Below are positions 19,800 to 59,240 of a DNA stretch of 64,000 bases, piece after piece (within the stretch, counting starts at the first letter, position 1; the number at the start of each line of letters is the position of its first letter). The notes under the pieces are model-generated. The model was not told the DNA's origin. It was given only the letters and a program-made list of their open reading frames with translations, and did not search any database. The stretch lies in IMG/VR virus record IMGVR_UViG_3300043391_000675, positions 26,006-90,005 of that record; one strand, 5' to 3'. The translations under genes were made by a program, and so were the position numbers. The DNA is from a virus. Lineage: Duplodnaviria; Caudoviricetes.

Positions 19800-22700
19800 T
19801 TAGTACCCCCGAAATGTTGGAGGGAAGAACGGTGTTGCAAATGTAGGTGGGAAGAACGGTGGGAAGAACGGTGGGAAGAACGGTGGGAAGAACGGACCGC
19901 CCTTAAAGCTTGGGAAGAACGGTGGGAAGAATGGGAAGAACGGTGGGAAGAATGGGAAGAACGGTGGGAAGAATGGGAAGAACGGTGGGAAGAACGGTGG
20001 GAAGAATGGAGATTCAAAGAACGGTGGGAAGAACGGTGGGAAGAACGGTGGGAAGAACGGTGGGAAGAACGGACCGCCCTTAAAGCTTGGGAAGAATGGC
20101 CCAACTACACATGCCTGAGTTTCTGAAGTTACGCATGGGTTTCCAGAAGGACATGTTCTTGTTCTTGATTGAGAAGAGTTTACACAAGTACTCCATGCTG
20201 ACCAAGCGGTGCAACCAGCTGCTTGTGTTGCATCGCAATTGCAAGGTGTTCCGCATGCTGGATATCCAGATGTGCTGCAGGAAGTTGAATATCCAGATCC
20301 GCTACCACTAATGTTAGAGGCTTCAATTGATTGTGAGCAACCAGCGCAGTTAAAGTTAACACTTGTTGTACAGTACCATGTACTGCATGCTTCAGTTTCA
20401 GATGTTGTACAAACATTTCCTGAAGGACAAGTTCTAGTTCTAGTTCGTGTGCCACCAGAACAAGCGCTCCAGGCAGACCATGCCCCACACTGACTTGCAA
20501 CGCAAACACAAGGTGTTCCGCATGCTGGATATCCAGATGTGCTGCAAGCGGTTGAGTAGCCAGATCCGCTGCCGCTTATGTTGCTACTTTCAATTGATTG
20601 TGAACAGCCAGCACAGTTGGAGTTAACGCTTGTTGTACAGTACCATGTACTACAAGTTTCAGTTTCAGATGTTGTACATGGTGATCCTGATGGGCAAGTT
20701 CGTGTTCTAGTTCTTAGTCCTCCAGAACAAGCGCTCCAAAAGCTCCAAGACCCACAAGCGTTGCTTGCAGTGGCATCACAAACGCAAGGCGTCTGGCATG
20801 CTGGATATCCAGATGTGCTGCAAGCGGTTGAGTAGCCAGATCCGCTGCCGCTAATATTACTTCCTTCAATTGAATACCCACAACCATAACAGTTAGCTGG
20901 CGTACTTGTTGTGCAATACCAACACTGTTGTGATTCTGAAGTTGAGCATGGAGATCCAGAAGGGCAGACTCTTGTTCGAGTTCTGTATCCTCCAGAACAA
21001 GCACTCCAAGCAGACCAAGCTCCGCAAGCACTATTCTGTGTCGAATCACAAACGCAAGGAGTAGCACAAGCGTAGTAAGATCCATTTTGATTACATGCCG
21101 TTGAGTAGCCAGATCCACCACCGCTTATGTTACTGGACTGAATGGTGTAAGAACAGCCAGCACAGTTTGAGTTAAGGCTTGTTGTACAATACCAGCACTG
21201 CTCTGTCTGTGTTGTTACGCAGGGGTTACCAGCAGGGCAAGTTCTAGTTCTTGTTCTTGTATGGCTTGCAGAACAAGCACTCCATTCACCCCACGCACCG
21301 CATGCGCTTTCTGCAGATGCACTGCAAACACAAGGTGTAGCGCATTCGTAGTAAGTTCCAGTTTGGTTGCATGCCGTTGAGTAGCCAGATCCACCACCGC
21401 TTATGTTACTGGACTGAATGGTGTAAGAACAGCCAGCACAGTTTGAGTTAAGGCTTGTTGTACAGTACCAGCACTGCTCTGTCTGTGTTGTTACGCAAGG
21501 GTTGCCAGCGGGACAAATTCTTGTACGGGTTCTTGTGTGGCTTGCAGAACAAGCACTCCACTCACCCCAAGTACCACATGCGCTTTCTGCAGATGCACTG
21601 CAAACGCAAGGGGTAGCGCAAACTGGATATGCTATTGAACTGCATGCTGTTGAATATCCAGACCCACTACCGCTTATGTTAGTTGATTCTATTGTTTGGC
21701 TACAACCAGCACAATTAAAATTAACGCTTGTTGTACAGTACCAGCAATTTTCAGTTAATACATCGTCACTTTCAACTATAGTACAATCTAACATATTTTC
21801 AATCTTAGTTCTAGTTTTTGTTCTAGTTCCATTAGAACATTCAGAATATGGTCCGTACTCAGTATATGTAGTAGATACGCAACATGATGGAGTAGTATAA
21901 CATGCAATGGAGTAGCCAGATCCAGTTGCACTTACATTTGTTGGTGACTCAAAAGTACTGCAAGATATTGGTGTCGATTGAACATAAGAAACACAATACC
22001 ATGTACCTGTTGTTTCACAAATTGGAGCCGATACTTCATAGTCATAAGAAAATGCAGTTAAATCTATATCATTAATTTTTGAAGTTGTTACAGTTACACA
22101 GGACGGTTGATCTGATTCTATGTCTGTAACGAATATTGTATTTCCAGTTCTAGAAGCATTTCCATTTGTGCAGCTTAGCTCTATATCAAATGAGCTGATG
22201 TCTGAGTAGTTTAATATTGTAACTTTAAAAGAAGTGGCGGTAGCGTCAAATGCTCTTGATAGCATAGCCTGAATACCCCAATTAAGAACTCTAATGCTTT
22301 CTGTAACAGTATTACTTTCTTTTAGCGGTATAGATGTTCCGCCTAATGCAGTAACAGATACATTATACAAAGCATTCTCAGTAAGTCCAGTAACTACTGC
22401 AGATGAATCTGTAGTAGTTACTGGGTATCCAGGTATAGAAATACCTGTTTGATTTCTTTTTATATCTACACGATATTGTGTTGCATTTGTAGAAAGCCAA
22501 TCTACAGAAAATGATGTTCTTGTTCTATTAGAAAATGTAATAGTTGGATCTTCAATAACTCCTGGCTGCCAGTCTATAAACGCAAGCTCTTGAGTTGGAC
22601 CAATTTCAGAATATCTTACACCAGTAAATTCTCTATAATAATCATCAGCTATGATTGACAGCTCCCACTGATAGCTATCATTAGGGTCTAAACTATTTGG

Positions 22701-23516
22701 CAAATTGATTGTTACTGAAGTGTCAGTGAGCAATACTGGTTCTGGCACATAAAGCTTTTGAACACCTGCACTATCATATAAGCTTATTATCTGTGACCAC
22801 ATATATGTCGGAACCTGAGCGGGTGTTATTGTTGCTGGATCGTATGCCCAAGATAGGGTTACAGATGTCTGAGTTTCATCTGTAATATCAAATGATGATA
22901 TGTTAAACCAGTATCTGGCTGCAATTCCTAGGCCTGGAAAATTAACATCAGCTTCCCCACTACTATTTTCAGCTTTTATTTTGCCTCTAAATTTTACTTT
23001 ATTAAGCACATTTGCTTTTGTTATTAATGGCCTGTTAGATGCGCTCACTGGGACTTGATATAGATAATCTGCATCTGAATAATCATCATATTGTTTAACT
23101 ACAGGTGTTATTAAATCTGTCCATGTAGAATATGGAGGATCTGATTTTTGTATATACATAGTAAATTTTGTAGGCTCTTCATTCCATTGGCCTCTTACTA
23201 AATACATTTTGTCCCCATTAAAAGGAGAATCTATTGATTCAAATCCGTCAGAGCTAATAAATGTAAGTGATGGTGGATTTGCTGTTTCAGCATTAGGCAC
23301 ATTAGTTCCAAATATTTTAAACCAAAGTCCTGACGTTCCTAGTTGCCAAACACTTTTTACTCTTAGCCAGCCATCAATAACCCATGGGTTAGAGCTTAAT
23401 CCAGAGTTTATTGTGTCTGAAACAGAAGCTTTTCTCCAGATGCTTCGAATCTTTACCCATCCGTTTATATTATGAGCACCAGTATCGGTTGCGCTAGTTT
23501 TTCTCCAGATGCTCAT
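19800..23516 (-). CDS. Large putative virion appendage: W-rich N-terminus, FN3-like domains, seven Cys-rich thrombospondin-1-like repeats, C-terminal (PPFF)n-FRGY
   Basis: FN3-like FSVDW...VTGLTENALYNVSVTA; repeats WYCTT...GYSTAC...CGxWxxWSACS..RTRTRTC; Pro/Phe tail. Confidence 0.85.
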   Translation of the reverse strand: MSIWRKTSATDTGAHNINGWVKIRSIWRKASVSDTINSGLSSNPWVIDGWLRVKSVWQLGTSGLWFKIFGTNVPNAETANPPSLTFISSDGFESIDSPFNGDKMYLVRGQWNEEPTKFTMYIQKSDPPYSTWTDLITPVVKQYDDYSDADYLYQVPVSASNRPLITKANVLNKVKFRGKIKAENSSGEADVNFPGLGIAARYWFNISSFDITDETQTSVTLSWAYDPATITPAQVPTYMWSQIISLYDSAGVQKLYVPEPVLLTDTSVTINLPNSLDPNDSYQWELSIIADDYYREFTGVRYSEIGPTQELAFIDWQPGVIEDPTITFSNRTRTSFSVDWLSTNATQYRVDIKRNQTGISIPGYPVTTTDSSAVVTGLTENALYNVSVTALGGTSIPLKESNTVTESIRVLNWGIQAMLSRAFDATATSFKVTILNYSDISSFDIELSCTNGNASRTGNTIFVTDIESDQPSCVTVTTSKINDIDLTAFSYDYEVSAPICETTGTWYCVSYVQSTPISCSTFESPTNVSATGSGYSIACYTTPSCCVSTTYTEYGPYSECSNGTRTKTRTKIENMLDCTIVESDDVLTENCWYCTTSVNFNCAGCSQTIESTNISGSGSGYSTACSSIAYPVCATPCVCSASAESACGTWGEWSACSASHTRTRTRICPAGNPCVTTQTEQCWYCTTSLNSNCAGCSYTIQSSNISGGGSGYSTACNQTGTYYECATPCVCSASAESACGAWGEWSACSASHTRTRTRTCPAGNPCVTTQTEQCWYCTTSLNSNCAGCSYTIQSSNISGGGSGYSTACNQNGSYYACATPCVCDSTQNSACGAWSAWSACSGGYRTRTRVCPSGSPCSTSESQQCWYCTTSTPANCYGCGYSIEGSNISGSGSGYSTACSTSGYPACQTPCVCDATASNACGSWSFWSACSGGLRTRTRTCPSGSPCTTSETETCSTWYCTTSVNSNCAGCSQSIESSNISGSGSGYSTACSTSGYPACGTPCVCVASQCGAWSAWSACSGGTRTRTRTCPSGNVCTTSETEACSTWYCTTSVNFNCAGCSQSIEASNISGSGSGYSTSCSTSGYPACGTPCNCDATQAAGCTAWSAWSTCVNSSQSRTRTCPSGNPCVTSETQACVVGPFFPSFKGGPFFPPFFPPFFPPFFPPFFESPFFPPFFPPFFPFFPPFFPFFPPFFPFFPPFFPSFKGGPFFPPFFPPFFPPFFPPTFATPFFPPTFRGY
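19803..20099 (-). repeat. In-frame 12-nt/9-nt tandem repeat encoding PPFF/PFF (array 1)
   Basis: Units CCACCGTTCTTC and CCATTCTTC; internal duplication of PSFKGGPFFPPFF. Confidence 0.95.
20109..22004 (-). repeat. Seven ~90-aa Cys-rich modules (one degenerate), each with a TSR-like WxxWxxC...RxRxC half
   Basis: Direct alignment of the units in the translation; about 12 Cys per unit. Confidence 0.9.
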
Positions 23517-26500
23517 TATGCTTTCCTACTTAATATTATGTCTCCAACAGAAAACGCTTTAGTTCCTTGATCTCCATCATTAAATTGTGATCTAGAAGAT
23601 GCTCCGTCTGGATAATTGTTTCCAGCATAAAAGAAAGCTCTACCCGTAGTCAAAAATCCATCTTGATTTTGTACAACCGTTGTATCTCCAGCTGTTCCAT
23701 TGTTGTCGCTTTGAACAGCTAATGCAATTTTAAAAGCAGCATAAGCTTTTTTATCTGGATTTATTGAAAAAATTCCATTTTCATAAACAATAGATCTGTT
23801 TCCTAGGCTAAAGTTTCCAGCAGATTTTGTTACCCCACCTATAGTTGTGCTTTTGCCAAGAAGGTAATCACTTGAAAAACTAGCTCCGCCCAAAAATACG
23901 TTAGATGCAACTAAATCTGTTTTAACTTTAAACTCAGATCCATTGTATGTTAAGTTGCCATTAGCTAGTCTAAAATTACCAGATGAGGATATATAATCAA
24001 TATTGCCTGGGTTTCCAGTTCCGCTTCCTGTCTCTGGGTTCCATGTGCCTGGATCGGGTGAATCTGCGCCAGTATTTGCTGCGTACCAATTTGTAGGATT
24101 CCAAAAGAAAACATTTGATCCAACAATATTTCCTCCAGCAATTGTTCCCTGTAAACCATCTAGTTTAACTTTTACTGTGCTACTTCCATCGATAAATGAT
24201 TCTAAAAACTTTCCGTTTATTTTCCATCCACTAGTTATCTTTTTGCTTGTTGCATCATACAATCCAAAGTATCCTGACCTGGCCTCTATAGATCCAGATA
24301 GTGTTGCTTCCTTTGCAATTAAAGATCCACCATATGTTACTGAGAAATTAGGACCAGGAGTTCCTGCCCTATTTCCGCCTGCCCAAATAGCAATATCTGA
24401 TAAAGTTGTTGTATTATAAAAGCCAATATTTTCTCCGTTATTAATAGAAGTATCGGTAATGGCCCAACCACCAATACTTCCCTTCCTTGCAATAATTCCA
24501 TTAACTGGATCTAGCTGAGCATAAATTCCATTTGTTGTATTTGTAACCTGTATGCCAGAACCTACTGTGGATCCAAGCACTGTAGCAAGTTGCCCAATTT
24601 CTACCTTGCCACCAGATGTTCCAGGAACGGTAACCCTCAGCTGTCCAGGGAACACAGTGTCAACACCATTGACTTTAATTGTACCGCCAATATCTATTGA
24701 GCCAAGTATTCCAGATGATGCTTTTATTACTCCACTGAGTTCTGCATTAACCGCTTTAACCAATCCATCAGTATCAACTTCAAAATTAGAACCAACCTTA
24801 ATTGTTCCACCAGTAATATGAAGATTTTTTGCTTTTACATATCCTGCACTAGTTACTGAGAATTTAGCATCTTCATTTGCATTTACTGAATACCCACCAG
24901 CTACTCCTCCGCCTGCCCAAAATGCGTAGGTGCCGCTTGGAGATAAGCCAGCATACGTTCCAGTTGTTGCATTTAAAGTATTTTCAATTTTGCCGCTAGA
25001 TATAACCCAGTTAGCAATTTTTGCTTTTTGAGTTATAAATGTTGCTGTAACACCGTTGTCTTCACCAATTATTTGCGTTGTTGGATTTGTTCCATTTAAA
25101 TCATTTGAGTCGTATAAAAATAAACCACGCTTATTTATAAGCATTCTTGCACCAGATAAAACTGGATTGTCATTAGCATCTAAAGTGCCAGCAAAAATAG
25201 ATCCATCTGTTTTTATCTTGACAGGATTTTCAATTAAAGAAAGAGATGCGACATCTATTATAGTAACCGAAACTGCAGCAGAAATAGTAGCAAGACCCTC
25301 TTCACATGTCCACTGGCCTTTAACCCAAACTATATTGCCAGCATTTGCTTCATCGTAAACAATCACTGGGCTTGAGTTAGAAGACGCAACAAGAGAGTAA
25401 GTTCCGTTTTCTGTCGAACTTTGGTAAACCTTTATTCCAGTAGCACTGGCATTTAAATTAGAAGATACGCTATACCCATTAGACAATGCTGTTACAGATA
25501 TAGTGGTTGTAATTCCAGAAAGAGGATTTGGTTTTACTGCTGTTGCTAATCCAGATATTGCAACTTGCGTTGTATTTTCATTTCTATATATATCAAGGTC
25601 CGTAACATATCCGCTTGAAAAAGAGCTTGGGCTATCTCCGAATGCGTCTATAATTTTTGATCTAGTTATCTTGACTGAAGTTGTTGCAGATGCTGCTGCA
25701 GAAACTGGATACTCAAAGGATCTAGTTTTGGTTCCAGATGTAAGGTGTACTATAACATAAGATGGTAAATTTAGTGCTGGCATCGTGAAAGAAACATCTA
25801 AGTCTCTAACATTCCATACAGCTGATGGATTAATTACTGGGTCTGGAGGTAGGTCATCAAATACAATTTGATCATAAGCTTTTCCTTCAACAATTGGGGA
25901 ATCAATAGACTGGCACCCAGAATCAGACAAGTGATTTAATTTAACATATACTGTATTCAATGTATATAATGTTATTGATGCTGGACCAAAGCCTGTGTAC
26001 CTAAGAACCCAATTATATGGAGATGCTGTTTCTGAAACATAAACTCTAGTTTCTCTGTATGTTCCAATTTTAGTTGCAGGATCTTGCCAAGAAACAATTA
26101 TGCTGCTATCTGCACTTACAACTGTAGGGGCAAGCGTCGATGCTACACATATAGGGTCTACATAAACAGGTATAGTAAATGGACAATCGTCAGATGATCC
26201 GTCTCCATATATACTTGTTATCTTTCCTGTTATTGTTGTTTGAAACACTCCGCCAAAGTTTGCCATGTTATTTGCTTGGCTAAGTGTATAGCTGTATTGG
26301 CTTACTCCAGCTTTTGTAGCAAATGGGACGAAGATTGGCTCTTCTCCTGCTGCAGTTAAAGTTAATTGGAAAAGTCTTATTCTTTCATCACGAGTTACAT
26401 TGTCTTCTAAAAATGGCTTTTCCCAAGAAACTTTTAAATCTGCAGTGCTTTCATCCCATACCGCAACAACATTAATTGGGCAAGTTCTTCTTGGGCCAGG

Positions 26501-26674
26501 TGTTCTAAAATTAAATCTGTCAGAGAACTCGCTTGTACCTAAAGTTTTATCGCTAAACACCCAGGCTGCTTGAAGAGCATAATCGGTACTACAATCTAAA
26601 TCTGGAATTACAACATCCCAGTAATCACCATCTTGTTTTTGTGTGATACCTAGATCTGGATATTGTTCTGACAT
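23516..26674 (-). CDS. Minor tail / host-specificity protein with FN3/Ig-like domains
   Basis: Beta-rich FN3-like segments, repeated GxIGGWxI-type motifs, position in tail module. Confidence 0.7.
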   Translation of the reverse strand: MSEQYPDLGITQKQDGDYWDVVIPDLDCSTDYALQAAWVFSDKTLGTSEFSDRFNFRTPGPRRTCPINVVAVWDESTADLKVSWEKPFLEDNVTRDERIRLFQLTLTAAGEEPIFVPFATKAGVSQYSYTLSQANNMANFGGVFQTTITGKITSIYGDGSSDDCPFTIPVYVDPICVASTLAPTVVSADSSIIVSWQDPATKIGTYRETRVYVSETASPYNWVLRYTGFGPASITLYTLNTVYVKLNHLSDSGCQSIDSPIVEGKAYDQIVFDDLPPDPVINPSAVWNVRDLDVSFTMPALNLPSYVIVHLTSGTKTRSFEYPVSAAASATTSVKITRSKIIDAFGDSPSSFSSGYVTDLDIYRNENTTQVAISGLATAVKPNPLSGITTTISVTALSNGYSVSSNLNASATGIKVYQSSTENGTYSLVASSNSSPVIVYDEANAGNIVWVKGQWTCEEGLATISAAVSVTIIDVASLSLIENPVKIKTDGSIFAGTLDANDNPVLSGARMLINKRGLFLYDSNDLNGTNPTTQIIGEDNGVTATFITQKAKIANWVISSGKIENTLNATTGTYAGLSPSGTYAFWAGGGVAGGYSVNANEDAKFSVTSAGYVKAKNLHITGGTIKVGSNFEVDTDGLVKAVNAELSGVIKASSGILGSIDIGGTIKVNGVDTVFPGQLRVTVPGTSGGKVEIGQLATVLGSTVGSGIQVTNTTNGIYAQLDPVNGIIARKGSIGGWAITDTSINNGENIGFYNTTTLSDIAIWAGGNRAGTPGPNFSVTYGGSLIAKEATLSGSIEARSGYFGLYDATSKKITSGWKINGKFLESFIDGSSTVKVKLDGLQGTIAGGNIVGSNVFFWNPTNWYAANTGADSPDPGTWNPETGSGTGNPGNIDYISSSGNFRLANGNLTYNGSEFKVKTDLVASNVFLGGASFSSDYLLGKSTTIGGVTKSAGNFSLGNRSIVYENGIFSINPDKKAYAAFKIALAVQSDNNGTAGDTTVVQNQDGFLTTGRAFFYAGNNYPDGASSRSQFNDGDQGTKAFSVGDIILSRKA

Positions 26675-26675
26675 G

Positions 26676-27536
26676 CTAAACTCCGAACGATAGGTCTAGT
26701 TTAAATTCTATTGCTGCTTCTCTTCCAATTACTTTAATTAATGTTGAATCCAACATAGATCTGGCAATCAGTCCATACTCTGGGTCAAAGGTGTCCTCAT
26801 CATTTATTCTAAGACCATCCATAGATACGGATGTTTGAGCAGATGTTGGAGTAACTACAATACCTAATTTTACAACGCTTTGTGCATTAAATGTTCCTGT
26901 TGATACTCCAGCAGACATATTTAAATTTTTAATATTATAACCAACTGAATGTCCAGTAAATGTAAATTGCAGATAATCTGTATCTGAGCTATATAGTCTT
27001 ACTTTTAATGAAGACAGATTAGCATCATTTACTTTATATGAAAATGATAATGTGTCTGATGGGTTATATCCAGATAGGTCTATATCTCCAAGGTCATAGG
27101 TATATTCTTTTGCCGCCGCCCCGTTTGAAGTAAATATTAATGAGCTGTCTCCAACTCTATAATCAGTTTGATCTAATGCTGGTTCTGGGCTCCACTTGTA
27201 TGGTAATTCAAAGTTAGATATGAACTTGCTTTCGTATAAATTCTTTGAGTAAGATTGTCCAGAGTATATTCCAATCTCGTTAATCTTACCTGCAATGTTT
27301 GTAGGAATTGTAGCAGAATATATAACTGTATACCTTGCTGGTGATACAGATGTGTCTATATCTATTCCGCCCTGCCTAATTGGAACTCTATAAAATTCAA
27401 ATCCTAATCTTGAGTTTGTGTTAGATAAAGCATACTCAGTTGATGTTGCAATTCCTAATGCCATCTCCTTTGAAGAAAATGCGGAGTTACCAGCAACAAA
27501 GTTGGCTAGAAATCTTTTACCAAATTTAGTTATCAT
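26676..27536 (-). CDS. Minor tail/baseplate protein
   Basis: MITKFGKRFL...RLGFEFYRVP...INEIGIY pattern; tail module position. Confidence 0.6.
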   Translation of the reverse strand: MITKFGKRFLANFVAGNSAFSSKEMALGIATSTEYALSNTNSRLGFEFYRVPIRQGGIDIDTSVSPARYTVIYSATIPTNIAGKINEIGIYSGQSYSKNLYESKFISNFELPYKWSPEPALDQTDYRVGDSSLIFTSNGAAAKEYTYDLGDIDLSGYNPSDTLSFSYKVNDANLSSLKVRLYSSDTDYLQFTFTGHSVGYNIKNLNMSAGVSTGTFNAQSVVKLGIVVTPTSAQTSVSMDGLRINDEDTFDPEYGLIARSMLDSTLIKVIGREAAIEFKLDLSFGV

Positions 27537-27874
27537 GATCTTCCTCCTTGCGTATCTGATATTGTTATTGCATAAAGGAAGCCATCTATTTGCTCTTCAC
27601 TTGAATTATAAATTCTAAACTTTGCTCTCGCCCTTTGCATTCCAGATGCATCCTCATATAGCTCAAAGCCTTTTAAGACTATGTCTGAAAGTTGTGGCCT
27701 CTTTCCAGTCCTTGGATCTGGATCCCCGTCTCCAGGAGCTCCACCAGAAGCTGTTGCTGAGAATGGAAACGATGCGGTAGAGGCTTGAGTCTCTCCAGAC
27801 TTGCCTTTCCATACTGCAGCTAAGCGTGGGTCATCATCAAATATGACCGCAATTTTTCCTGCTTCGATTCCCAT
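27533..27874 (-). CDS. Hypothetical tail-module protein (leaderless)
   Basis: 113-aa ORF; TGGTATAAT ends 6 nt before ATG. Confidence 0.65.
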   Translation of the reverse strand: MGIEAGKIAVIFDDDPRLAAVWKGKSGETQASTASFPFSATASGGAPGDGDPDPRTGKRPQLSDIVLKGFELYEDASGMQRARAKFRIYNSSEEQIDGFLYAITISDTQGGRS

Positions 27875-51181: not shown

Positions 51182-51348
51182 TATTTCCTAAAGAATATCT
51201 TTTTTAATTTTTTAAATACGCTAGAAACATCCTGCTTATTTTTTTCATAAGCTTTATCCGTTCTGTCAATAAAGGCATGGCTTTTAAAGTATGGGTTAAA
51301 TTGAACATCTGTAAAATGTCTTCTAGGGATTCTTTTATAAGGAGTCAT
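51181..51348 (-). CDS. Small basic protein (55 aa, leaderless; not in ORF track)
   Basis: MTPYKRIPRRHFTDVQFNPYFKSHAFID...KKIFFRK; TATAAT 7 nt upstream; TAATG overlap. Confidence 0.65.
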   Translation of the reverse strand: MTPYKRIPRRHFTDVQFNPYFKSHAFIDRTDKAYEKNKQDVSSVFKKLKKIFFRK

Positions 51349-51379
51349 ATTTAATATTATACTACAATAAGTCCTAAAA

Positions 51380-51844
51380 TCAACAGTCTAGCTTTTTGTC
51401 AATTCCCAAATTTGATAAGAATCTCTCTGGGTCAAATCTCCAGTTATCTTTGGCAAATGAGGTCATTATCTCCATACAGGTATTCTCATATGCTTGAATT
51501 GAAATTAAAGGCTTTAGGCCTAATAAGGTTTCTGTAACATCTATATAGTTTGTTCTTAAGAATGTTGGATCCCCCGCCTGATTTCTTTTAAACACCTTTT
51601 CATTTATTTTGCCTGTAGGCTCATATAGCCTAACTGTAAGATATTGTTTTGCAAATCCCCAGTCGTTGTACATATTGTATGCTTGTGCTGCCTCTATAGC
51701 ATTTGGGAAGAATATAATTGATCTTGCTGGCTCTTCCCCATCTCTTGCAATTGTAAGCATATAGGCATCGGACTTTTTATTTGCTACAGTCTCAATGTAC
51801 TCTCTAACAACATCGTGATGCTCTTGCTTTAGCTGTCCGCTCAT
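51380..51844 (-). CDS. Hypothetical protein closing the oxygenase operon
   Basis: 154-aa ORF abutting the methyltransferase stop. Confidence 0.7.
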   Translation of the reverse strand: MSGQLKQEHHDVVREYIETVANKKSDAYMLTIARDGEEPARSIIFFPNAIEAAQAYNMYNDWGFAKQYLTVRLYEPTGKINEKVFKRNQAGDPTFLRTNYIDVTETLLGLKPLISIQAYENTCMEIMTSFAKDNWRFDPERFLSNLGIDKKLDC

Positions 51845-52444
51845 TTATGTCCACGCCATCTTAAATTTTTCTCTAAAATCCAAATACGGTATAGCGTATG
51901 GATCTACCCACCAATCTTCATGCCACTCTCTAACAACTAGCTTATAACCAAATGAAGAAAGAATTTCTCTTTGCGCCTCACGCATTCCCTTATTGTTATA
52001 TTCAATTTGAGAGTCATGTTCAAAAGTAATTACAGAAAACCTATACTTGCTTAAAGGAATAGCAAGTAGTCCGTGTAAAGTTAAGTAGGGATTCCCCACA
52101 GAGTTTCCTTCTGGGGTATACCCAGCATCTATGTCAACCTGCAAGTAGTCTATTTGTTTTGGAAAATTATTGTCTTCAAAATAGGAAAGATAATTAAAAT
52201 GTGTTGCGTCTCCCAAAATGCATGGGTTTTTTCTATTTGAAACGAACTCTGCGTGTCTTTCTGGGTCTATTTCAAATGAAACACCGTTCCACTTATAATC
52301 TGTTTCTAGATGATAGGTGTTGCTTCCTTTTTTAGAATCAAATGCGCCTAGCTCTACGTAGTAACCATTTTCTTTATTTTTAAGTAAATCCAGCACAAAT
52401 TTTTCTTGTCCACTATTTCCCTTATACTCCATGATATTCTCCAA
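51845..52444 (-). CDS. FkbM-like SAM-dependent methyltransferase
   Basis: YYVELGAFDSKKGSNTY, IDYLQVDID, ITFEHD; ATG at 52432 may be the true start. Confidence 0.75.
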   Translation of the reverse strand: MENIMEYKGNSGQEKFVLDLLKNKENGYYVELGAFDSKKGSNTYHLETDYKWNGVSFEIDPERHAEFVSNRKNPCILGDATHFNYLSYFEDNNFPKQIDYLQVDIDAGYTPEGNSVGNPYLTLHGLLAIPLSKYRFSVITFEHDSQIEYNNKGMREAQREILSSFGYKLVVREWHEDWWVDPYAIPYLDFREKFKMAWT

Positions 52445-53015
52445 ATAAGTCTTTGTTTAATGATATACCTTTATCATCAACGTGATGTTTTACAAATACT
52501 GTTGATATATATCTAACTACATCATTTTTTACTGGCTTTGTACCATGTAAAATTTTCCCGCCATGAATAACCAGCGATCTACTTTTTGGTTTGTGCACTA
52601 TATTTAAATCAGGATAATCTAATTCACCGCCGCTGTAGTCATCATTATAATAAAGAACAGCACCATAAAATACCTTTTGATTAGAAGCCCTATGACCCTC
52701 ATGATCATCGGTGTGAAGTCCAAGGAAGTCATCCATTTTATATCTTTGTAAATTTATTCCAGTAACATCAACATTGCCAGAAAACAGTGCAGATATTCTA
52801 TTATAAAAATCTAAAAAAATGCTACATGAATTTACAAGTTTTCTATTTAAAACTCTAGAATCCCAAAACTCATATGTTAGATCTTCTTCATGCCACTCAG
52901 AATCATTTCTAAGATTTATAAATTGCATTACCTGATCAAGCTCTTCTTCTGTTATAAAATTTTGTATTTCATAAACTTGATCAGATAACTTTGCAATTTT
53001 ATAGTCTAACATCAA
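52422..53015 (-). CDS. 2OG-Fe(II) oxygenase, prolyl-4-hydroxylase-like (6th of array)
   Basis: HTD, YYNDDYSGGEL, HGTKPVKNDVVR. Confidence 0.9.
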   Translation of the reverse strand: MMLDYKIAKLSDQVYEIQNFITEEELDQVMQFINLRNDSEWHEEDLTYEFWDSRVLNRKLVNSCSIFLDFYNRISALFSGNVDVTGINLQRYKMDDFLGLHTDDHEGHRASNQKVFYGAVLYYNDDYSGGELDYPDLNIVHKPKSRSLVIHGGKILHGTKPVKNDVVRYISTVFVKHHVDDKGISLNKDLFGEYHGV

Positions 53016-53020
53016 CTACA

Positions 53021-53779
53021 TTATTCTTGGTTTTGTTCGTGATAAGCTTTGATGTATTCTTCTGATGGTCCTCCTGGACCTCCAACAACATAACCATCAA
53101 CAAATATGAATCCAGGAGTAATAAACTTATCTCCTTGTTTCATGATATGAACCTGATGCTTGTATGGATCTGTAGATGGGAAAATTAATGCACTACCAGC
53201 TTTTGGCTTTGCAGTAAATGTAACCATGTCTTTGGTTCTTGGATCTAGTGCATCATCTGGTGGTCTAAGGTGACCATTTACTTCTAATCTTAGATCTTCT
53301 GGTCTAATAACAAATGAAATCTCTCCGCCTTCGTAGTCATCGTTCCAGTAAATGATAATTGACCACTCTAAGCTGTTGTCTCCAGCTTGTCTATCGAAGT
53401 GTGCTCCCATTGCACAACCCTCAATATATTTTTGAATACCAACAAATGGTGATACGTTTGGAACACCCTTAAGACCTCTATCAACAATAAAAGATTCTGA
53501 TATATTCTTAATAGCATTTCTAATTGTTGATATGATAAAGTCTACATCTTTTCTTATATCTTCATCTAAATTTTCTACCTCAGAAAGATTAAAGTCCTTT
53601 TTCTTTCCAAAGATGTTACCGTCTCTGCTGCTTGAATTCCAGTTTTTCCATTTTGGAATAACCTTGTGAACTCTTTCATCAGAATCTAGCTTATTTATTA
53701 AATCAATAATTGCTTGTGGATTCTCAATTACATCTGAGTACATGTAAACATTTTCATGTAATTTTTCTTCTAGCTTCAT
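53021..53779 (-). CDS. 2OG-Fe(II) oxygenase, P4H-like (5th)
   Basis: [25 protein letters not shown]. Confidence 0.9.
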   Translation of the reverse strand: MKLEEKLHENVYMYSDVIENPQAIIDLINKLDSDERVHKVIPKWKNWNSSSRDGNIFGKKKDFNLSEVENLDEDIRKDVDFIISTIRNAIKNISESFIVDRGLKGVPNVSPFVGIQKYIEGCAMGAHFDRQAGDNSLEWSIIIYWNDDYEGGEISFVIRPEDLRLEVNGHLRPPDDALDPRTKDMVTFTAKPKAGSALIFPSTDPYKHQVHIMKQGDKFITPGFIFVDGYVVGGPGGPSEEYIKAYHEQNQE

Positions 53780-54522
53780 TAGTCGTTCTCCTCTATTTTG
53801 TATTTATTTCCGTCTAGATCTATCTTATAACCTTCTTTTAATGCATCCTGCCATTCCGATTTAATAACTTCTTGCTCTTCTCTAATCTTTTTCATTTCTG
53901 CATCCCAGGCATCTATTGTTTCTTGAGGATAATCCTCTGGGGCCCGATCATCCCAAAATGATCCTAGTGTGTATCTTATACCAGAAGTTATCATTGTAAC
54001 CTCATGAGTATTATCAAAGCCTCCTGCAAAAGCCGCTAAAGTCCCAGTCTCTGGAATAAGTGTATGGTTTTGTTTATTAAATATTAGCTGTCCGCCTTCA
54101 AACTCATCATTTAAATACAAGAAAGCTGCGTACCTACTTCTTTCAAATGGCCCCGTGTTTCCCTGTAAATCTGTATTGTCTGAGTGTTCTTTTGCGTAAG
54201 CTCCAGGCTCCCATTTTTGAGCATGAAATCCAATCTTATGAATATCTGAAGAAGAGTTTCCATGAACTTCAGCAACTGAATCAATAATCTTATTTTGAAG
54301 TGTAGAGAAAAAATCTGAAGCTAAACCAAATTGTTCTAGCTCCTCGTCACCGTCTTGTGGCAAGACAGAAGAGTATGATTCGTAAAAAGTGATTGGAGTC
54401 CATGACAATTTTTCATTTGCAACTTGAGCCTCTAAAACTTTTATTATTGCAGAAGATTCTTCTTTTGTTAAAAAGTTTTTAAATACTAAAATATCTGCTG
54501 TTAATCTTTCTGAAGTACTCAT
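53779..54522 (-). CDS. 2OG-Fe(II) oxygenase, P4H-like (4th)
   Basis: HSD, YLNDEFEGGQL, HEVTMITSGIR. Confidence 0.9.
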   Translation of the reverse strand: MSTSERLTADILVFKNFLTKEESSAIIKVLEAQVANEKLSWTPITFYESYSSVLPQDGDEELEQFGLASDFFSTLQNKIIDSVAEVHGNSSSDIHKIGFHAQKWEPGAYAKEHSDNTDLQGNTGPFERSRYAAFLYLNDEFEGGQLIFNKQNHTLIPETGTLAAFAGGFDNTHEVTMITSGIRYTLGSFWDDRAPEDYPQETIDAWDAEMKKIREEQEVIKSEWQDALKEGYKIDLDGNKYKIEEND

Positions 54523-55250
54523 TTATTTATATCTCCATCTAGTAGTGTTCTGTAATATTTTTTATTTGGATCTGGCTGGTTTTCTCCAGTATGCTCTAGA
54601 ATCTCCCAGAAAAATGGGCAGGTGTATCTTATGGCACCTTTAATTTCAGTTACTCCATGAATATAATTCATATCTCCTGGAAAGAAATATGCTGCTCCTT
54701 TTTTAGGCTTAAACTGTACATCTTGGAGAGGAAAATATAATTCTCCGCCCTCATAGTCGTCATTTAAATAAAACAGACTTGAGAGGTCATAGTTTGGAAA
54801 ATCATTTGGCAATCCAATATCTGGAAGTTCATGAAGCTCTTTATCTGCATGTGGTTTCTGGAACTGTCCAGGAAGCCAACGAACAATTGTTGTTCCAGTT
54901 GGAGTTACTTTAACCTTATAAAAATCTTCAACAATTGGCTTTAGTCTTTCAAACAAGCCTTGAAGAATAGGTCTAATCTTTGGATCATTCTTATCTAAAG
55001 ACGGGCTTGTGCAAACTCTATCTTTCCAGTAATTAGCATCGTATACCGTTGTACCATTTTCATTAACATGGCTTTCAGTTACATCCCAAATAGTTATTTT
55101 TCTAGCAGCTGCCTCAAGAAAATCTATCTCTTCTTGAGTCATAAAGTTTTCTAGTTCAACTATCATGTCCTTGCCATACCCAAAGAATCCAGAAGGCGTG
55201 AGAGATGGTGTCTTGTATACTACTGAAGCATCCTGATTTGTTGAGTTCAT
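54519..55250 (-). CDS. 2OG-Fe(II) oxygenase, P4H-like (3rd)
   Basis: [25 protein letters not shown]. Confidence 0.9.
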   Translation of the reverse strand: MNSTNQDASVVYKTPSLTPSGFFGYGKDMIVELENFMTQEEIDFLEAAARKITIWDVTESHVNENGTTVYDANYWKDRVCTSPSLDKNDPKIRPILQGLFERLKPIVEDFYKVKVTPTGTTIVRWLPGQFQKPHADKELHELPDIGLPNDFPNYDLSSLFYLNDDYEGGELYFPLQDVQFKPKKGAAYFFPGDMNYIHGVTEIKGAIRYTCPFFWEILEHTGENQPDPNKKYYRTLLDGDINK

Positions 55251-55262
55251 TTTTCTATTATA

Positions 55263-55979
55263 TCATTTCTTGTCTTTAGAGGTAAGATCAGTAATCTTTA
55301 GCTTTAAAGACTTTACCTCGTGACTGCCTAGGCTATTTCCTAAATAGTCTACTGCATCTCTATAAAAATTTGTAAATCCGCCCTTTTTAGTAATTTCGTC
55401 CCAAACTTTTTGTCTTTTTTCTTGTTCTTTTAAATCCATACCTTCAAACACTTTGTCTTTAATTTCAAGCTCGACATTTTGATACTCTTTTAATGATATT
55501 GGAATAAAAGTAGCAACTGGCATTCCAGCTGGAATTTTAATTATAGTATTTGGCCTTGTAATTCTCCAGGCAATAGGGATTGCTTCTTTTAAAACTGAAG
55601 TTGATATTACTGTTGTAAATGGGGTTGCTCCATCAACAAAAAAGTTAGGGGGAACGATTTGTAACATTGAAACGTTTTCAGGTGTATCAAAATAGAATCC
55701 AGAATAAAAACTTATAGTAGCGTTTCCTCTTACTGTTGTGGGAACACCTACTGGGCCTGATAATATGGTTACATGATCTGGGGTTGTATCTGAAATTCCA
55801 TCCCAAATAAACTCAATATCATCTAAAAAAGAAATTGACCAGCCAACTGTATTTGCCAGAGAAACTGGAAAACATTTGTAGGCATGAGCATCTAAAGTAT
55901 CATCCATCCAGTCTCTTTTGACTTTAGTCTGTTCAATTTTAGATCTAGTCTGTTTATTTTTATATACTGTTATTTTCAT
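55263..55979 (-). CDS. DUF6065-like protein
   Basis: RDWMDDTLDAHAYKCFPVSLANTVGW, KIPAGMPVATFIP. Confidence 0.7.
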   Translation of the reverse strand: MKITVYKNKQTRSKIEQTKVKRDWMDDTLDAHAYKCFPVSLANTVGWSISFLDDIEFIWDGISDTTPDHVTILSGPVGVPTTVRGNATISFYSGFYFDTPENVSMLQIVPPNFFVDGATPFTTVISTSVLKEAIPIAWRITRPNTIIKIPAGMPVATFIPISLKEYQNVELEIKDKVFEGMDLKEQEKRQKVWDEITKKGGFTNFYRDAVDYLGNSLGSHEVKSLKLKITDLTSKDKK

Positions 55980-56670
55980 TTACTTCATTGTCCCATTTTG
56001 GATCATACATGTCTGGAGTATGAAATTTTTTACTGTAGTCAAGCATTGTTACTATAGAGTATTTTGTTCCCTTAGTTACCGCTTTTGCCTGATGGGCATA
56101 CATAAAATTAGATGGGAAAACATATAGATCTCCAGCCTTTGGTTTAATGTCTAGATTCTGAAGTCTAAAATAAAGCCCACCATCTTCATAATCATCGTTA
56201 ACATATCCTACAAGAGAAACAACACAATTGTAAGAATACCCATGATCTTGATGCTCCATAAAATGCTGGCTTTCTCCATATTTAATAAAGTTAAAAGCTT
56301 CCCAGTACTTAAGCTCCATAATATTGTGTGCTTTGCAATAATCTACAACTGCTGGATATTGAACATCATATACATCTTGCCACAGAGCTTTTAGCTTTTC
56401 TGCATCTTCGCTTTTGTCTAAAGCAATATCACTTTTTTTAAACTTAATATCTACACAGTCTCTATAGTCTGGCATTAGTTGTTGATAGCCAACGTATGCT
56501 GGCTGGAAAGTATATCTTTTTTCTTTAGTTCCAACTTGTCCAACTGCACCCTCAAGCCTATTAATTATATCAAGGTCTTTTTTTAAGACATCTCTGTATA
56601 CAAATATTCCAGGGGCTAGCTCTTCTTTGCTGCTCCAAGTAGGTGCTGTGCTTTTAGTTGCTGTTGTCAT
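55960..56670 (-). CDS. 2OG-Fe(II) oxygenase, P4H-like (2nd)
   Basis: HQD, YVNDDYEDGGL, HQAKAVTKGTK. Confidence 0.9.
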   Translation of the reverse strand: MTTATKSTAPTWSSKEELAPGIFVYRDVLKKDLDIINRLEGAVGQVGTKEKRYTFQPAYVGYQQLMPDYRDCVDIKFKKSDIALDKSEDAEKLKALWQDVYDVQYPAVVDYCKAHNIMELKYWEAFNFIKYGESQHFMEHQDHGYSYNCVVSLVGYVNDDYEDGGLYFRLQNLDIKPKAGDLYVFPSNFMYAHQAKAVTKGTKYSIVTMLDYSKKFHTPDMYDPKWDNEVNENNSI

Positions 56671-57440
56671 TTATAATCCCTCTTTGTCCAAACTTTTGAT
56701 TTATATACTCCACCGTCAGGCTGACGATAAAAATTTGCATTTTCAACTAATCTGTCTTGCATTTCTTTTATTTTTAAATATTCAACATCGTGATCCCAAT
56801 CTTCTCTTTTAAATGGAAGAATCTGTAAGAATGGCGTTCCTTTTGGAATAGTGCCTTCCCAGTCTTTTGCAATAAAAAACGGAAATGTTCCAAGTAAGTG
56901 AACTTTATCGTTGTCAACAACACCACTTGTATTTAAAAATGGTAAATCAAATCTATTCATTGGTGTCATAAATAATGCACTATAGCCTTCTGGAACTTGA
57001 ATTCCCCATTCTGGGTACCATGCAAAATGATCTTCGTAATATCCTATAGGAGATGGGAATTGTTCCATAGGAGTTCTTTCTGTTACAAAACTAATATGCT
57101 TTTTGTCTTTTACTTCTACAGAAATCTTTCCATTTTTATTTTTTGAAAATACTAAATCGCATGGAGTGCTTAAAACATATCCAGTCATAAATGCATCTAA
57201 TATTGCTGGGCAGGCTTTCCATGTAGGAATCTTGCCAAAATCTTTTGGGTCCCCTTCTTTTGAAACAGGACATACCTCTTTTGTGGCCTTATAGTATTCA
57301 CCATTTGGCATCTTTGCAAATCTATCAGCCTCTTTATACCATGCAGGTATGCTTTGCTGTGTTGGTTTTGGCACTGATGGGCTAAACTTGTTTAGCCATG
57401 GCCTAAACGATTGAAATAATATTTTAATAGGTTTTGCCAT
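56667..57440 (-). CDS. DUF6065/dUTPase-fold-like protein (likely start 57440)
   Basis: [50 protein letters not shown]. Confidence 0.65.
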
Positions 57441-58131
57441 TCTCTTTGTCATGATAAAGATCATTGTAGTCCATCATAATAACAACAGCATACTTTGTGC
57501 CAGATAATAAATTTAAAGATGCATGCTCATAAACAAAATTAGAAGGGAAAAGAATTATGTCTCCTGCCTTTGGTTTTAAGACAAGGTCGTGTCGTGGAAA
57601 TTCAATTTCCCCGCCCTCATAATCGTCATTTAAATAAACAACTGCAGAAACTGTACATGTGTAATATGGACCATGATCAGCATGAATTTTAAAAAATTCT
57701 CCTGGTAGATATTTAACAAAGTTAAATGCTTCTTTGTAATTAATGTTAAAATTCCAAACGGACTCATAATGTCTTAGTGATTTATTTAATCCAACATCAA
57801 CAATATCATAGCATTCTCTTAAAACATCACTATCTGCAAGATAGTTACCAAGCTGATCTCTTTTAAACTTTAAATCATAACAATTTCTAGCATGACTAGT
57901 TGGCTCGGCTTTAGCATTAACGGTTGCTCCGTGCCACTTTATTCCACGTTTATCCAAAGATATTTCTTCTTCAAGCATGTTGATTAATCTTTGGCAATCT
58001 TCTTTACTAATTGCATTTCTATAAAGATTTATTCCATATTCAAGATTTTCAACAATCATGCCATTGTCAATTTTTTTTGGTTCAACTCTTGAAGTTGTTT
58101 TTTCAATTCGTGGTAGGTCATACCATTCCAT
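57424..58131 (-). CDS. 2OG-Fe(II) oxygenase, P4H-like (1st)
   Basis: [25 protein letters not shown]. Confidence 0.9.
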
Positions 58132-58193
58132 AGTATCTCATTTCTACTATAACATCTTATCATACTATTCTAGAAAAGAAAAGTATATTTTAT

Positions 58194-59240
58194 TTAGTAT
58201 CCTCTAAAGTATGGGAAGTATGGTCCGCCGCCAAATGATGGGAAGAATGGGAAGTATGGTCCGAATCCTGGGAAGAACGGTCCGAATCCTGGGAAGAACG
58301 GTGCCTTAAATCCTGGGAAGTATGGTCCGAATGTTGGTGGGAAGAACGGTGGGAAGAATGGGAAGTACGGTGGGAAGAATGGGAAGAACGGTGGGAAGAA
58401 CGGTGGGAAGAACGGTGGGAAGAATGGTGGGAAGAATGGGAAGAACGGTGGGAAGAACGGTGGGAAGAACGGTGGGAAGAATGGTGGGAAGAATGGGAAG
58501 AATGGTGGGAAGAATGGGAAGAACGGTGGGAAGAACGGTGGGAAGAACGGTGGGAAGAATGGTGGGAAGAATGGGAAGAACGGTGGGAAGAACGGGAAGA
58601 ATGGTGGGAAGAAAGGCGGGAAGAACGGGAAGAACGGTGCTATGGTAGTAATATTAGCACTATTATTTGAAGCCAAAGAAGTTCCATTAGCATTAGTTGC
58701 TGTAGCTGAATATGTTTGAGAAGTATTTGCTGTATCAGCAATAACTACAGAAGTTGCATTAGCCGCTAAATTTCCAGATGAAGATCCATCTGATCCAGTA
58801 ACATTATGCCGTGTTAATGCAGATCCTCCAGAAGCTCCTATTTGCCAGTTAATTGTATTTTGATTAACACCAGCAGTTGCAGTAAGTGATTGTGGCGCTT
58901 GAGGAACTGTGCTTACTGTAACTGCTGATGAAGCAATTGAAACAAGAGAGGTTCCAGCAGCATTTGATGCTGTCATTGTAAATGTTGGATTTGCTGTTGA
59001 TGCAAAGCCAGTTACAGTAATTGGAGATGATGATCCAGTTGCTGTTTGTCCAGTGCTAGCTGTTATAGTATAAGATGTTGCTGGTGGAGATGCTGCTGGC
59101 AAAGAGAAAGTTAATATTACGGCTCCGTTGTTGTAAGGCCGATCTGTTCCGACGTTTGTAACACTATCAATTATTGGTCTGCTTGGCTCCAAAAAATTGT
59201 CTTGCGCCGAAGATTTTCTACCTATTCTTTTGTTTGCCAT
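58194..59240 (-). CDS. Two FN3 domains plus C-terminal (PPFF)n-FRGY tail
   Basis: FN3 motifs TFTMTASNAAGTS, VPQAPQSLTA, YSATATNANGTS; about 147-aa Pro/Phe tail. Confidence 0.88.
   Translation of the reverse strand: MANKRIGRKSSAQDNFLEPSRPIIDSVTNVGTDRPYNNGAVILTFSLPAASPPATSYTITASTGQTATGSSSPITVTGFASTANPTFTMTASNAAGTSLVSIASSAVTVSTVPQAPQSLTATAGVNQNTINWQIGASGGSALTRHNVTGSDGSSSGNLAANATSVVIADTANTSQTYSATATNANGTSLASNNSANITTIAPFFPFFPPFFPPFFPFFPPFFPFFPPFFPPFFPPFFPPFFPFFPPFFPFFPPFFPPFFPPFFPPFFPFFPPFFPPFFPPFFPPFFPFFPPYFPFFPPFFPPTFGPYFPGFKAPFFPGFGPFFPGFGPYFPFFPSFGGGPYFPYFRGY
58197..58637 (-). repeat. In-frame 12-nt/9-nt tandem repeat encoding PPFF/PFF (array 2)
   Basis: Same CCACCGTTCTTC and CCATTCTTC units as array 1; distal PYF/PGF variants. 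Confidence 0.95.

What the first reader, a model, noticed from the sequence alone, without database searches (positions are those of the whole stretch)
19800..59240. Two unrelated proteins 38 kb apart end in the same PPFF tract and the same FRGY C-terminus, written with different codons
Seen: the 1238-aa protein ends ...PPTFATPFFPPTFRGY* (ttt cgg ggg tac taa) and the 348-aa protein ends ...FPSFGGGPYFPYFRGY* (ttt aga gga tac taa). Both tails also contain PPTF, PSF and FKxx/FGG interruptions, while their N-terminal parts differ apart from FN3-type domains. Inference: identical residues with different Arg, Gly codons point to selection at the protein level. The PPFF-FRGY module may be a portable C-terminal signal for virion attachment, enzyme recognition, cleavage or cross-linking that can be added to different passenger domains.
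Basis: partly seen in the sequence, partly recalled or inferred. Interest (0 to 1): 0.8.

Follow-up and report, generated by a model that had tools for sequence, protein, structure and literature searches.

The report
Phage Pro-Phe tails with matched caps
Two unrelated fibre-type proteins of an uncultured lake phage end in the same proline-phenylalanine tail and the same last four residues; in related phages this tail is a swappable module tied to batteries of collagen-type hydroxylase genes, and its last residues change in step in both proteins, which points to a shared partner that is still unknown.

Summary
Both proteins end in (PFF/PPFF)n tracts and in FRGY. Only the Arg and Gly codons of FRGY differ. 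The tract itself uses the same 12-nt unit in both genes, and tracts in more than 119 other viral contigs share that unusual codon choice.

FRGY is not a universal signal. It is one allele of a conserved cap, Gly-rich x(0-3)-Tyr-COOH, found on "naked" tails. Orthologues of the 1238-aa protein end in FRGY, GFGY or QGDE[RF], have no tail, or carry a different linker plus a Hint domain.

The cap is under purifying selection: Arg is written three ways across seven genes. It is also matched within genomes. All three independent lineages with two short-capped tails on unrelated proteins share the last 4-7 residues (FRGY, GFGY, GCPPRC). They differ only synonymously, and their 3' flanks are unrelated.

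The tract is predicted to be non-globular. It is virus-specific and tightly linked to P4H-like oxygenase arrays (47/50 records) and DUF6065 (39/50).

My reading is a hydroxylase-substrate stalk whose cap is read by a shared partner. No chemistry has been shown.

This scan has already reported the Pro-Phe tail plus hydroxylase pairing on other phage DNA. The cap analysis is what is new here.

The parts
19800..23516 (-). 1238-aa fibre-type protein (P0001), the last gene of the tail module. It has a conserved N-terminal 420 aa, an FN3 domain, about six Cys-rich TSR-like repeats and a Pro-Phe tail.
   Evidence: PF00041; neighbouring tail genes; orthologues 62-88% identical in the N-terminal part.
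19803..20099 (-). Pro-Phe tail of P0001 (aa 1140-1238), containing two PSFKGG punctuations.
19803..19901 (-). Distal segment of the P0001 tail: the 33 aa after the last Lys (aa 1205), interrupted by Thr/Ala and ending in the cap.
   Evidence: The same tail is present in orthologue L163.
19803..19814 (-). FRGY cap of P0001 (TTT CGG GGG TAC). CGG and GGG are rare codons in this phage (1% and 6%).
58194..59240 (-). 348-aa protein (P0002): a tandem FN3 N-domain followed by a Pro-Phe tail. It lies in a fibre-like gene cluster directly upstream of the oxygenase array.
   Evidence: pLDDT >90 for aa 20-200; tandem FN3; large family.
58641..59240 (-). Conserved N-terminal double-FN3 module of P0002 (aa 1-200).
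58197..58637 (-). Pro-Phe tail of P0002 (aa 202-348). It is predicted as coil without regular secondary structure (pLDDT 45-59).
58197..58304 (-). Distal segment of the P0002 tail: the 36 aa after the single PGFK (Lys 312), interrupted by Gly (GFG units) and ending in the cap.
   Evidence: The segment is conserved in L181, L199, L200 and L202 although their N-domains are only 60-85% identical.
58197..58208 (-). FRGY cap of P0002 (TTT AGA GGA TAC).
52422..58131 (-). Array of eight abutting genes directly downstream of P0002. Six are P4H-like 2OG-Fe(II) oxygenases (PF13640), one is DUF6065 (55263-55979) and one has no family assignment (56667-57464). These are the candidate tail-modifying enzymes.
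   Evidence: (nearest solved structures: B. anthracis P4H and the lysyl hydroxylase LH3).

Best explanation
The two tails are copies of one modular, virus-specific appendage placed at the distal (C-terminal) end of two different virion fibre-type proteins. The module has four parts: a core (PFF/PPFF)n tract, a single PxFK punctuation, a 33-36-aa distal segment interrupted by Gly or Thr, and a Gly-Tyr-COOH cap (here FRGY).

Shown here:
- The module is real coding sequence under protein-level purifying selection.
- It is shuffled among unrelated N-terminal parts.
- It is predicted to be non-globular.
- It is genomically tied to batteries of collagen-type prolyl/lysyl-hydroxylase-like enzymes plus DUF6065.
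- Its last 4-7 residues are matched between the two tail-bearing proteins of one phage but differ between phages.

Inferred:
- The tract is an extended stalk that the adjacent oxygenases hydroxylate, following the logic of collagen, extensin and the PBCV-1 P4H.
- The cap is a short docking or recognition element. It stays matched in both proteins because both tails meet the same partner, which could be a phage enzyme, a phage assembly site or a host-surface component.
For: Selection:
- Arg of FRGY is encoded by three codons, and a conserved subterminal Ser by TCA, AGT and AGC, across seven genes.
- The distal 40 aa are nearly unchanged at 60% N-domain identity.

Matched caps:
- G000 has FRGY on both proteins, G032 and G084 have GFGY on both, and G045 has GCPPRC on both.
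- In each case the N-parts are unrelated, the 3' flanks are unrelated, the subterminal sequence is gene-specific, and all 7 nucleotide differences are synonymous.
- The background rate of sharing the last four residues is 2.7%.

A conserved Tyr end:
- All naked tails of the P0002 family end in Gly-rich x(0-3)-Tyr, and 12 of 13 have PxFK 30-51 aa before the end.
- A different 917-aa fibre in G079 ends in GGGY after an FN3 domain.

Modularity.

Enzyme link:
- PF13640 occurs in 47/50 tract-bearing records, usually in 6-11 copies, and DUF6065 in 39/50.
- A P4H-like ORF starts within 400 nt downstream in 15/16 naked-tail and 20/24 Hint-type loci.
- The link holds across capsid clades only about 40% identical, and in fragments of roughly 200-kb genomes.
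- The nearest solved relatives are a bacterial collagen P4H and LH3.

The tract is essentially viral: 28 hits in about 186k species genomes, of which about 12 look phage-like. It is predicted as coil.
Against: - No chemistry, localisation or binding has been shown.
- P0001 orthologues in seven records end in QGDE[RF], one has no tail and one has a different linker plus a Hint domain. The cap is therefore dispensable or replaceable on that protein.
- The partner's cap in QGDE-type phages could not be seen. G057 (P0002-like ends in FRGY; its cut P0001-like is closest to a QGDEF type) may be discordant.
- Only three independent lineages support the matching.
- The tract-oxygenase link has no tract-negative control within the same lineage.
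- Hydroxyproline was never detected in PBCV-1 virions (PMC7019647).
Confidence: 0.5

Rival explanations
1. The match comes from concerted evolution. The near-identical repeat DNA of the two tracts promotes intragenomic gene conversion that copies the tail end from one gene to the other. The matched caps would then be a by-product of DNA mechanics and would need no shared partner.
For: - Both tracts share the same 12-nt unit and long identical stretches.
- Caps and tips are replaced often on the tree and among P0001 orthologues.
Against: - The 3' flanks are unrelated, so there is no second homology arm.
- The subterminal 10-30 aa remain gene-specific and orthologous between G000 and G032, while only the last residues changed in parallel.
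- The caps differ at synonymous sites in all three genomes, so any conversion is old and the identity has since been held by selection.
- The shared tract codons are a general property of all such tracts (TTC 86%, CCG 28% in 119 contigs, against 22% and 3% genome-wide), not a sign of recent exchange.
Confidence: 0.2
2. The segment after the last Lys is a removable pro-piece. Maturation would cut at PxFK and leave an FK-COOH end, and the cap would serve only as a transient folding, processing or export handle.
For: - FK-COOH is the commonest genetically encoded end (22 of 58 distinct tails).
- In Hint-bearing relatives, the residue before the catalytic Cys is Lys in a GFKG(Y)K context, so autoprocessing would also leave a Lys end.
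- PxFK lies 30-51 aa before the end in 12/13 Tyr-capped tails.
- The contig encodes a subtilase.
Against: - There is no evidence of cleavage.
- The distal segment and cap are conserved as strongly as a mature functional part would be.
- The subtilase lies far from both genes and was not tested for co-occurrence.
Confidence: 0.15
3. The tails are generic hydrophobic spacers or sticky ends with no specific partner. The shared FRGY would then reflect compositional convergence of low-complexity sequence built from F, P, G and Y.
For: - The tails are low-complexity and predicted as coil.
- Many different ends exist.
- Ends built from G, F and Y recur.
Against: - Only 2.7% of random tail pairs share the last four residues, yet 3 of 3 same-genome unrelated pairs do.
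- Arg is not a tract residue, yet it is kept through three different codons.
- GCPPRC is not tract-like at all.
Confidence: 0.1

Closest known systems
Chlorovirus PBCV-1 prolyl 4-hydroxylase with the virus's own proline-rich repeat ORFs (Eriksson et al. 1999, as cited in PMC7019647)
   Same: A virus encodes both a P4H-type enzyme and proteins with short proline-rich tandem repeats that are its plausible substrates. The biological role is unknown.
   Different: - The system here is in bacteriophages.
- There are 6-11 paralogous oxygenases plus DUF6065, not one enzyme.
- The repeat is Pro-aromatic (PFF/PPFF), not PAPK-like.
- It sits as a C-terminal tail or linker on fibre-type proteins and carries a selected terminal cap.
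- In vitro activity is known for PBCV-1, and none is known here.
Tandem dioxygenase array of Synechococcus phage Syn9, and the hydroxylate-then-sulfate proposal for collagen-like/tail-collar proteins (Iyer, Abhiman, de Souza, Aravind 2010, PMC2938197)
   Same: Both have a phage-encoded battery of about ten 2OG-Fe(II) dioxygenases from several families. That paper predicts that co-encoded structural proteins are hydroxylated. This contig also carries a sulfotransferase and an APS-kinase fusion.
   Different: No substrate was identified for the Syn9 array, and the authors favoured secondary metabolites. Here a specific, co-inherited and adjacent repeat tail is the candidate substrate. No halogenases were seen in the parts annotated.
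Hydroxyproline-rich structural proteins (collagen Gly-X-Y, plant extensins Ser-Pro3-5)
   Same: These are proline-rich, extended, non-globular repeats serviced by P4H-family enzymes.
   Different: There is no Gly at every third residue and no Ser-Pro(n). About 45% of the tract is Phe, which has no parallel in those families.
Modular distal tips of phage tail fibres / receptor-binding proteins
   Same: The N-terminal virion-attachment part is conserved, while the C-terminal tip is variable and horizontally exchanged.
   Different: The exchanged unit here is a low-complexity tail with a 4-7-residue cap (or Cys knot or Hint domain), not a folded receptor-binding domain. The same cap appears on two different proteins of one phage.

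Membership tests
Virus-encoded P4H plus Pro-rich repeat substrate pair (PBCV-1 type) | A virus-encoded P4H-family 2OG-Fe(II) oxygenase. | tested here: met
   Six PF13640 hits above the cut-off in window 52422-58131. The nearest solved structures are B. anthracis P4H and LH3. Catalytic residues were not inspected individually.
Virus-encoded P4H plus Pro-rich repeat substrate pair (PBCV-1 type) | A virus-encoded protein with tandem proline-rich repeats, genomically linked to the enzyme. | tested here: met
   Tails are 38-39% Pro. PF13640 occurs in 47/50 tract-bearing records. A P4H-like ORF lies directly downstream in 43/68 loci.
Virus-encoded P4H plus Pro-rich repeat substrate pair (PBCV-1 type) | Demonstrated hydroxylation of the repeat. 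| not testable with these tools
   This needs enzyme assays or mass spectrometry.
Collagen-like triple helix | Gly at every third residue (Gly-X-Y)n. | tested here: not met
   The tails have only 5 and 10 Gly in 99 and 147 residues, with no 3-residue Gly period.
Extensin / HRGP | Ser-Pro(3-5) repeats. | tested here: not met
   There are no Pro runs longer than two, and Ser is rare.
FN3-domain virion proteins | FN3 beta-sandwich domain(s). | tested here: met
   P0001 has a PF00041 hit at aa 326-402. The P0002 AF2 model shows two beta-sandwiches with pLDDT >90, and Foldseek finds tandem FN3 at E about 1e-10.
Known C-terminal sorting or anchoring signals (LPXTG sortase, T9SS CTD, PEP-CTERM) | The signature motif followed by a hydrophobic helix and basic tail, or a folded CTD. 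| tested here: not met
   No Pfam family matches either tail. Direct reading finds no LPXTG or PEP motif and no helix.
Hint/intein-type autoprocessing C-termini | A Hint domain with a nucleophile at +1 after the tract. | tested here: not met
   Neither window protein has one. Relatives do: P0003 carries PF05203, and 19 distinct N-domain sequences of the P0002 family have 155-214 aa after the tract with a K|C junction.
rSAM/SPASM-modified C-terminal Gly-x-Tyr peptides (mycofactocin type; recalled from memory, a lead only) | A small precursor ending in Gly-Val-Tyr, encoded beside its rSAM/SPASM maturase. | tested here: inconclusive
   The tails are on large proteins more than 35 kb from the contig's rSAM/SPASM gene. 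That gene is present in FRGY-type G079 and G057. It is absent from the GFGY-type fragments G032 and G084, but these are only about 52% complete.

The most novel reading that the evidence does not exclude
The phage makes a post-translationally tailored material of its own. Ribosomally made Pro-Phe tails on fibre proteins would be hydroxylated, and possibly further derivatised or cross-linked, by a dedicated multi-enzyme battery. The 4-7-residue C-terminal cap would act as an address code that co-evolves with that machinery or with a host-surface receptor. On this reading, all tail-bearing proteins of one phage carry the same code and different phages carry different codes. That would be a phage counterpart of collagen, extensin or mussel-glue chemistry, with a RiPP-like recognition element.
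Probability: 0.25. Interest if true: 0.85.

Novelty: new variant of a known kind. Interest (0 to 1): 0.62.

Why it matters
Phage 2OG-Fe(II) dioxygenase batteries have had no known substrate since they were described in 2010. A co-inherited, adjacent repeat tail offers a concrete, testable candidate.

The cap result adds a second handle. A very short C-terminal motif under purifying selection, matched between unrelated proteins of one phage, can be tested directly with synthetic peptides. It could identify the partner, whether that is an enzyme, an assembly site or a receptor.

The lineage is very abundant in lake viromes (at least 599 capsid matches), so whatever these tails do is likely to matter ecologically for phage adsorption in fresh water.

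Tried and rejected
- tblastn of P0002 and megablast of 20 kb against cultured phages found nothing.
- A word-indexed protein search with the distal 64 aa gave no scoring hit.
- The ESM Atlas gave no usable hit.
- The partner of QGDE[RF]-type P0001 orthologues could not be resolved. All seven IMG/VR records and the three metagenome loci are cut before the partner or within the gene.
- Family searches for Gp23 (PF07068) and Sulfotransfer_4 (PF17784) returned nothing anywhere, controls included, so they are uninformative.
- A tract-negative control from capsid relatives was not possible, because the best 80 relatives are 81-99% identical and belong to the same lineage.
- Assembly chimera is rejected. 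Each tail with its gene-specific subterminal sequence recurs in independent contigs (L163, L181, G032, G084).
- A wrong reading frame is rejected. The Pro-Phe frame is continuous with upstream domains and with downstream Hint, Cys or FN3 domains in relatives, and F/Y/W/H substitutions are conservative. The alternative-frame ORFs at 19790-20104(-) and 58322-58648(+) are repeat artefacts.
Full report
**Observation**

The window is the last 64 kb of a 90-kb IMG/VR viral contig that is 83% complete. Its capsid protein is about 62% identical to those of Streptomyces phages. It has at least 599 close matches in viral contigs, the best 80 at 81-99% identity, so this is an abundant uncultured lineage.

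- ORF 19800-23516(-) encodes 1238 aa and ORF 58194-59240(-) encodes 348 aa. Both end in long Pro-Phe tracts and in FRGY.
- The tails are 99 aa (38 P, 44 F) and 147 aa (58 P, 68 F).
- The N-terminal parts are unrelated.
- The tract itself does not use different codons. Both genes use CCA/CCG TTC TTC with the same 12-nt consensus unit.
- That codon choice is unusual for this phage, which genome-wide uses TTT for 78% of Phe and CCG for 3% of Pro. It is, however, general to such tracts: in 119 other contigs TTC is 86% and CCG 28%, and the dicodon TTCTTC occurs 1235 times against 33 for TTTTTT. Shared tract codons are therefore not evidence of recent exchange. Homopolymer avoidance is my inference.

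**What the tails are attached to**

- P0001 is the last gene of the tail module, which runs tape measure, minor tail protein, tail protein, a 1052-aa protein, then P0001. It has an FN3 domain and Cys-rich repeats.
- P0002 lies in a fibre-like cluster upstream of the portal gene.
- In the AlphaFold model of P0002, aa 20-200 form two confident beta-sandwiches that Foldseek matches to tandem FN3. The tract is coil with pLDDT 45-59.

**The tract is a widespread viral module**

It hit only 28 stretches in about 186k prokaryotic species genomes. About a dozen of those look phage-like on low-GC MAG contigs, and the rest are spurious frames.
- No paper in the library contains the repeat.
- The tract occurs as a C-terminal tail or as an internal linker followed by FN3, Cys-rich knots or Hint domains.
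- P0002 belongs to a large family with a conserved double-FN3 N-domain (40-85% identity) and highly variable ends. On the N-domain tree the tip type changes at least 16 times. Well-supported branches force at least 5 changes for Hint, 5 for Cys, 2 for FRGY and 2 for GGWxY.
- Orthologues of P0001 tell the same story. One (88% identical in the N-terminal part) carries a Thr-Ile-Asp-type repeat plus a Hint domain instead of the tail. Seven end in QGDE[RF], one has no tail and L163 ends in FRGY.

**FRGY and the cap**

FRGY is not a general signal, but it is not noise either.

- All naked tails of the P0002 family end in a Gly-rich stretch followed by Tyr-COOH. The variants are FRGY, GFGY, GGWxY, GGFY, GGGMY, GFGFY and GFRY.
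- In 12 of 13, a single PxFK lies 30-51 aa before the end. In the window it lies 33 and 36 aa before the end.
- FRGY and the preceding ~15 residues are unchanged in genes whose N-domains are only 60% identical. Meanwhile Arg is written AGA, CGG or AGG, and a conserved Ser as TCA, AGT or AGC. This is purifying selection at the protein level.

**Caps are matched within genomes**

- In the syntenic relative G032, and in G084, both orthologues end in GFGY. In the window both end in FRGY.
- The subterminal 10-30 residues stay gene-specific and orthologous between the two phages. Only the last residues changed, and they changed in parallel.
- In G045 two proteins with unrelated N-parts both end in GCPPRC.
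- In all three genomes the caps differ only synonymously (3, 1 and 3 nucleotides; random-placement P about 2e-5). The 3' flanks are unrelated.
- Among 58 distinct short-capped tails, 2.7% of pairs share the last four residues, so three out of three is unlikely by chance. The estimate of about 2e-5 is rough and has no phylogenetic correction.
- Paralogue pairs in other records also match (G034, G039, G049), but that is expected from duplication.

The open risk is the QGDE[RF] class. Its records never include the partner gene. In G057 the P0002-like gene ends in FRGY, while its truncated fibre gene is closest to a QGDEF type.

**Link to enzymes**

- Directly downstream of P0002 lie six PF13640 oxygenases, one DUF6065 gene and one gene with no family assignment. 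The first oxygenase is nearest to the B. anthracis collagen P4H and to the lysyl hydroxylase LH3 among solved structures.
- Of 50 whole records with a tract, 47 carry PF13640, mostly in 6-11 copies, and 39 carry DUF6065.
- A P4H-like ORF starts within 400 nt downstream in 15/16 naked-tail, 20/24 Hint-type and 8/28 Cys-type loci.
- The link spans capsid clades only 37-43% identical to this one, and also fragments that CheckV rates as 9-23% of much larger genomes.
- The rest of the contig adds a sulfotransferase, an APS-kinase fusion, two Asp/Asn-hydroxylase-like genes, two more PF13640 genes, an rSAM/SPASM gene and a subtilase.

**Interpretation**

I read the tails as extended stalks that are candidate substrates of the oxygenase battery. 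I read the cap as a short element recognised by a partner common to both proteins. Nothing chemical has been shown.

- Gene conversion alone fits poorly with the unrelated flanks, the gene-specific subterminal sequence and the synonymous differences.
- A pro-piece model (cut at PxFK) stays open. FK-COOH is the commonest encoded end (22/58), and Hint-type relatives have Lys before the catalytic Cys.

**Comparison with what is known**

- The closest known cases are the PBCV-1 P4H with that virus's Pro-rich repeats, where the role is unknown and no hydroxyproline was found in virions (PMC7019647), and the Syn9 dioxygenase array, whose substrates are unknown (PMC2938197).
- The tails fail the defining features of collagen, extensins and known sorting signals.
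- Earlier reports of this scan found the Pro-Phe tail plus hydroxylase pairing on other phage DNA. I re-tested that link here.
- What this report adds is the tail anatomy, the conserved Tyr cap, its purifying selection and its within-genome matching.

Noticed in passing
window 20109-22001 (-), within P0001: There are about six ~90-aa Cys-rich repeats with a CxxWSxWSxC...RTRTRxC pattern that resembles thrombospondin type-1 repeats. Pfam gave no TSP_1 hit at E 0.01. The repeat number varies among orthologues. The contig also encodes two Asp/Asn beta-hydroxylase-like enzymes, a family that modifies Cys-rich EGF modules in eukaryotes.
   Followed up: no
P0003 (orthologue of P0001, 88% identical in the N-terminal 420 aa): In place of the Pro-Phe tail it has a Thr-Ile-Asp/Asn/Ala repeat linker, then GGGG, then a Hint domain (PF05203). 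A different low-complexity linker therefore occupies the same slot.
   Followed up: partly
L190, L201, L204-L211, L215-L216, L219-L222, L225-L227, L251-L252, L254-L255, L257, L259 (P0002 family): Many family members carry a 155-214-aa Hint-like domain after the tract. The junction is typically ...GFKG(Y)K|C, or Ser at +1. Autoprocessing would leave, or activate, a Lys-terminated Pro-Phe tail, which would resemble Hedgehog-type C-terminal chemistry on a phage fibre protein.
   Followed up: partly
G039, G049, G001, G042 and others (L009, L022, L027, L054, L067, L071, L073-L074, L080, L082, L099...): Small 115-160-aa proteins consist of a ~60-aa head plus a (PPFF/PPYF/PPWF)n tract ending in PPxFK-COOH. 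They often occur twice per record and lie beside P4H-like and DUF6065 genes. The records are rated as only 9-23% of much larger genomes.
   Followed up: partly
window tracts 19846-20073 and 58336-58639; L009-L127: Tracts use TTC (86-95%) and CCG (28-40%), against a genome-wide preference for TTT (78%) and CCA/CCT. The dicodon TTTTTT is almost avoided. This may limit homopolymer slippage. The many Pro-Pro motifs would also make translation depend on EF-P (inference).
   Followed up: partly
G000 contig outside the window: L383 3221-3802, 5247-5879, 6666-7505, 9458-10459, 14031-15032, 17460-18095; L384 2473-3285, 3889-4449: Further protein-modification genes lie here: Sulfotransfer_4, two Asp/Arg-hydroxylase-like genes, two more PF13640 genes, an rSAM/SPASM gene, a subtilase and an APS-kinase fusion. 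The rSAM/SPASM gene is 91-95% conserved in the FRGY-type relatives G079 and G057.
   Followed up: partly
L262 (G079:C1:9000-16000), 917-aa ORF: A different fibre protein has an internal Pro-Phe linker followed by an FN3 domain, and it ends in ...GGGY. A Gly-rich Tyr-COOH end therefore also occurs without a terminal tract. L015 and L019 are similar.
   Followed up: no
window 55263-55979 (-) and 39 of 50 tract-bearing records: DUF6065 travels with the P4H array and the tract. It has no solved relative by sequence, and no paper in the library mentions it.
   Followed up: partly
window 19790-20104 (-) and 58322-58648 (+): These ORFs of 104 and 108 aa are alternative-frame readings of the repeat DNA. 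They are artefacts of the repeat, not genes.
   Followed up: yes
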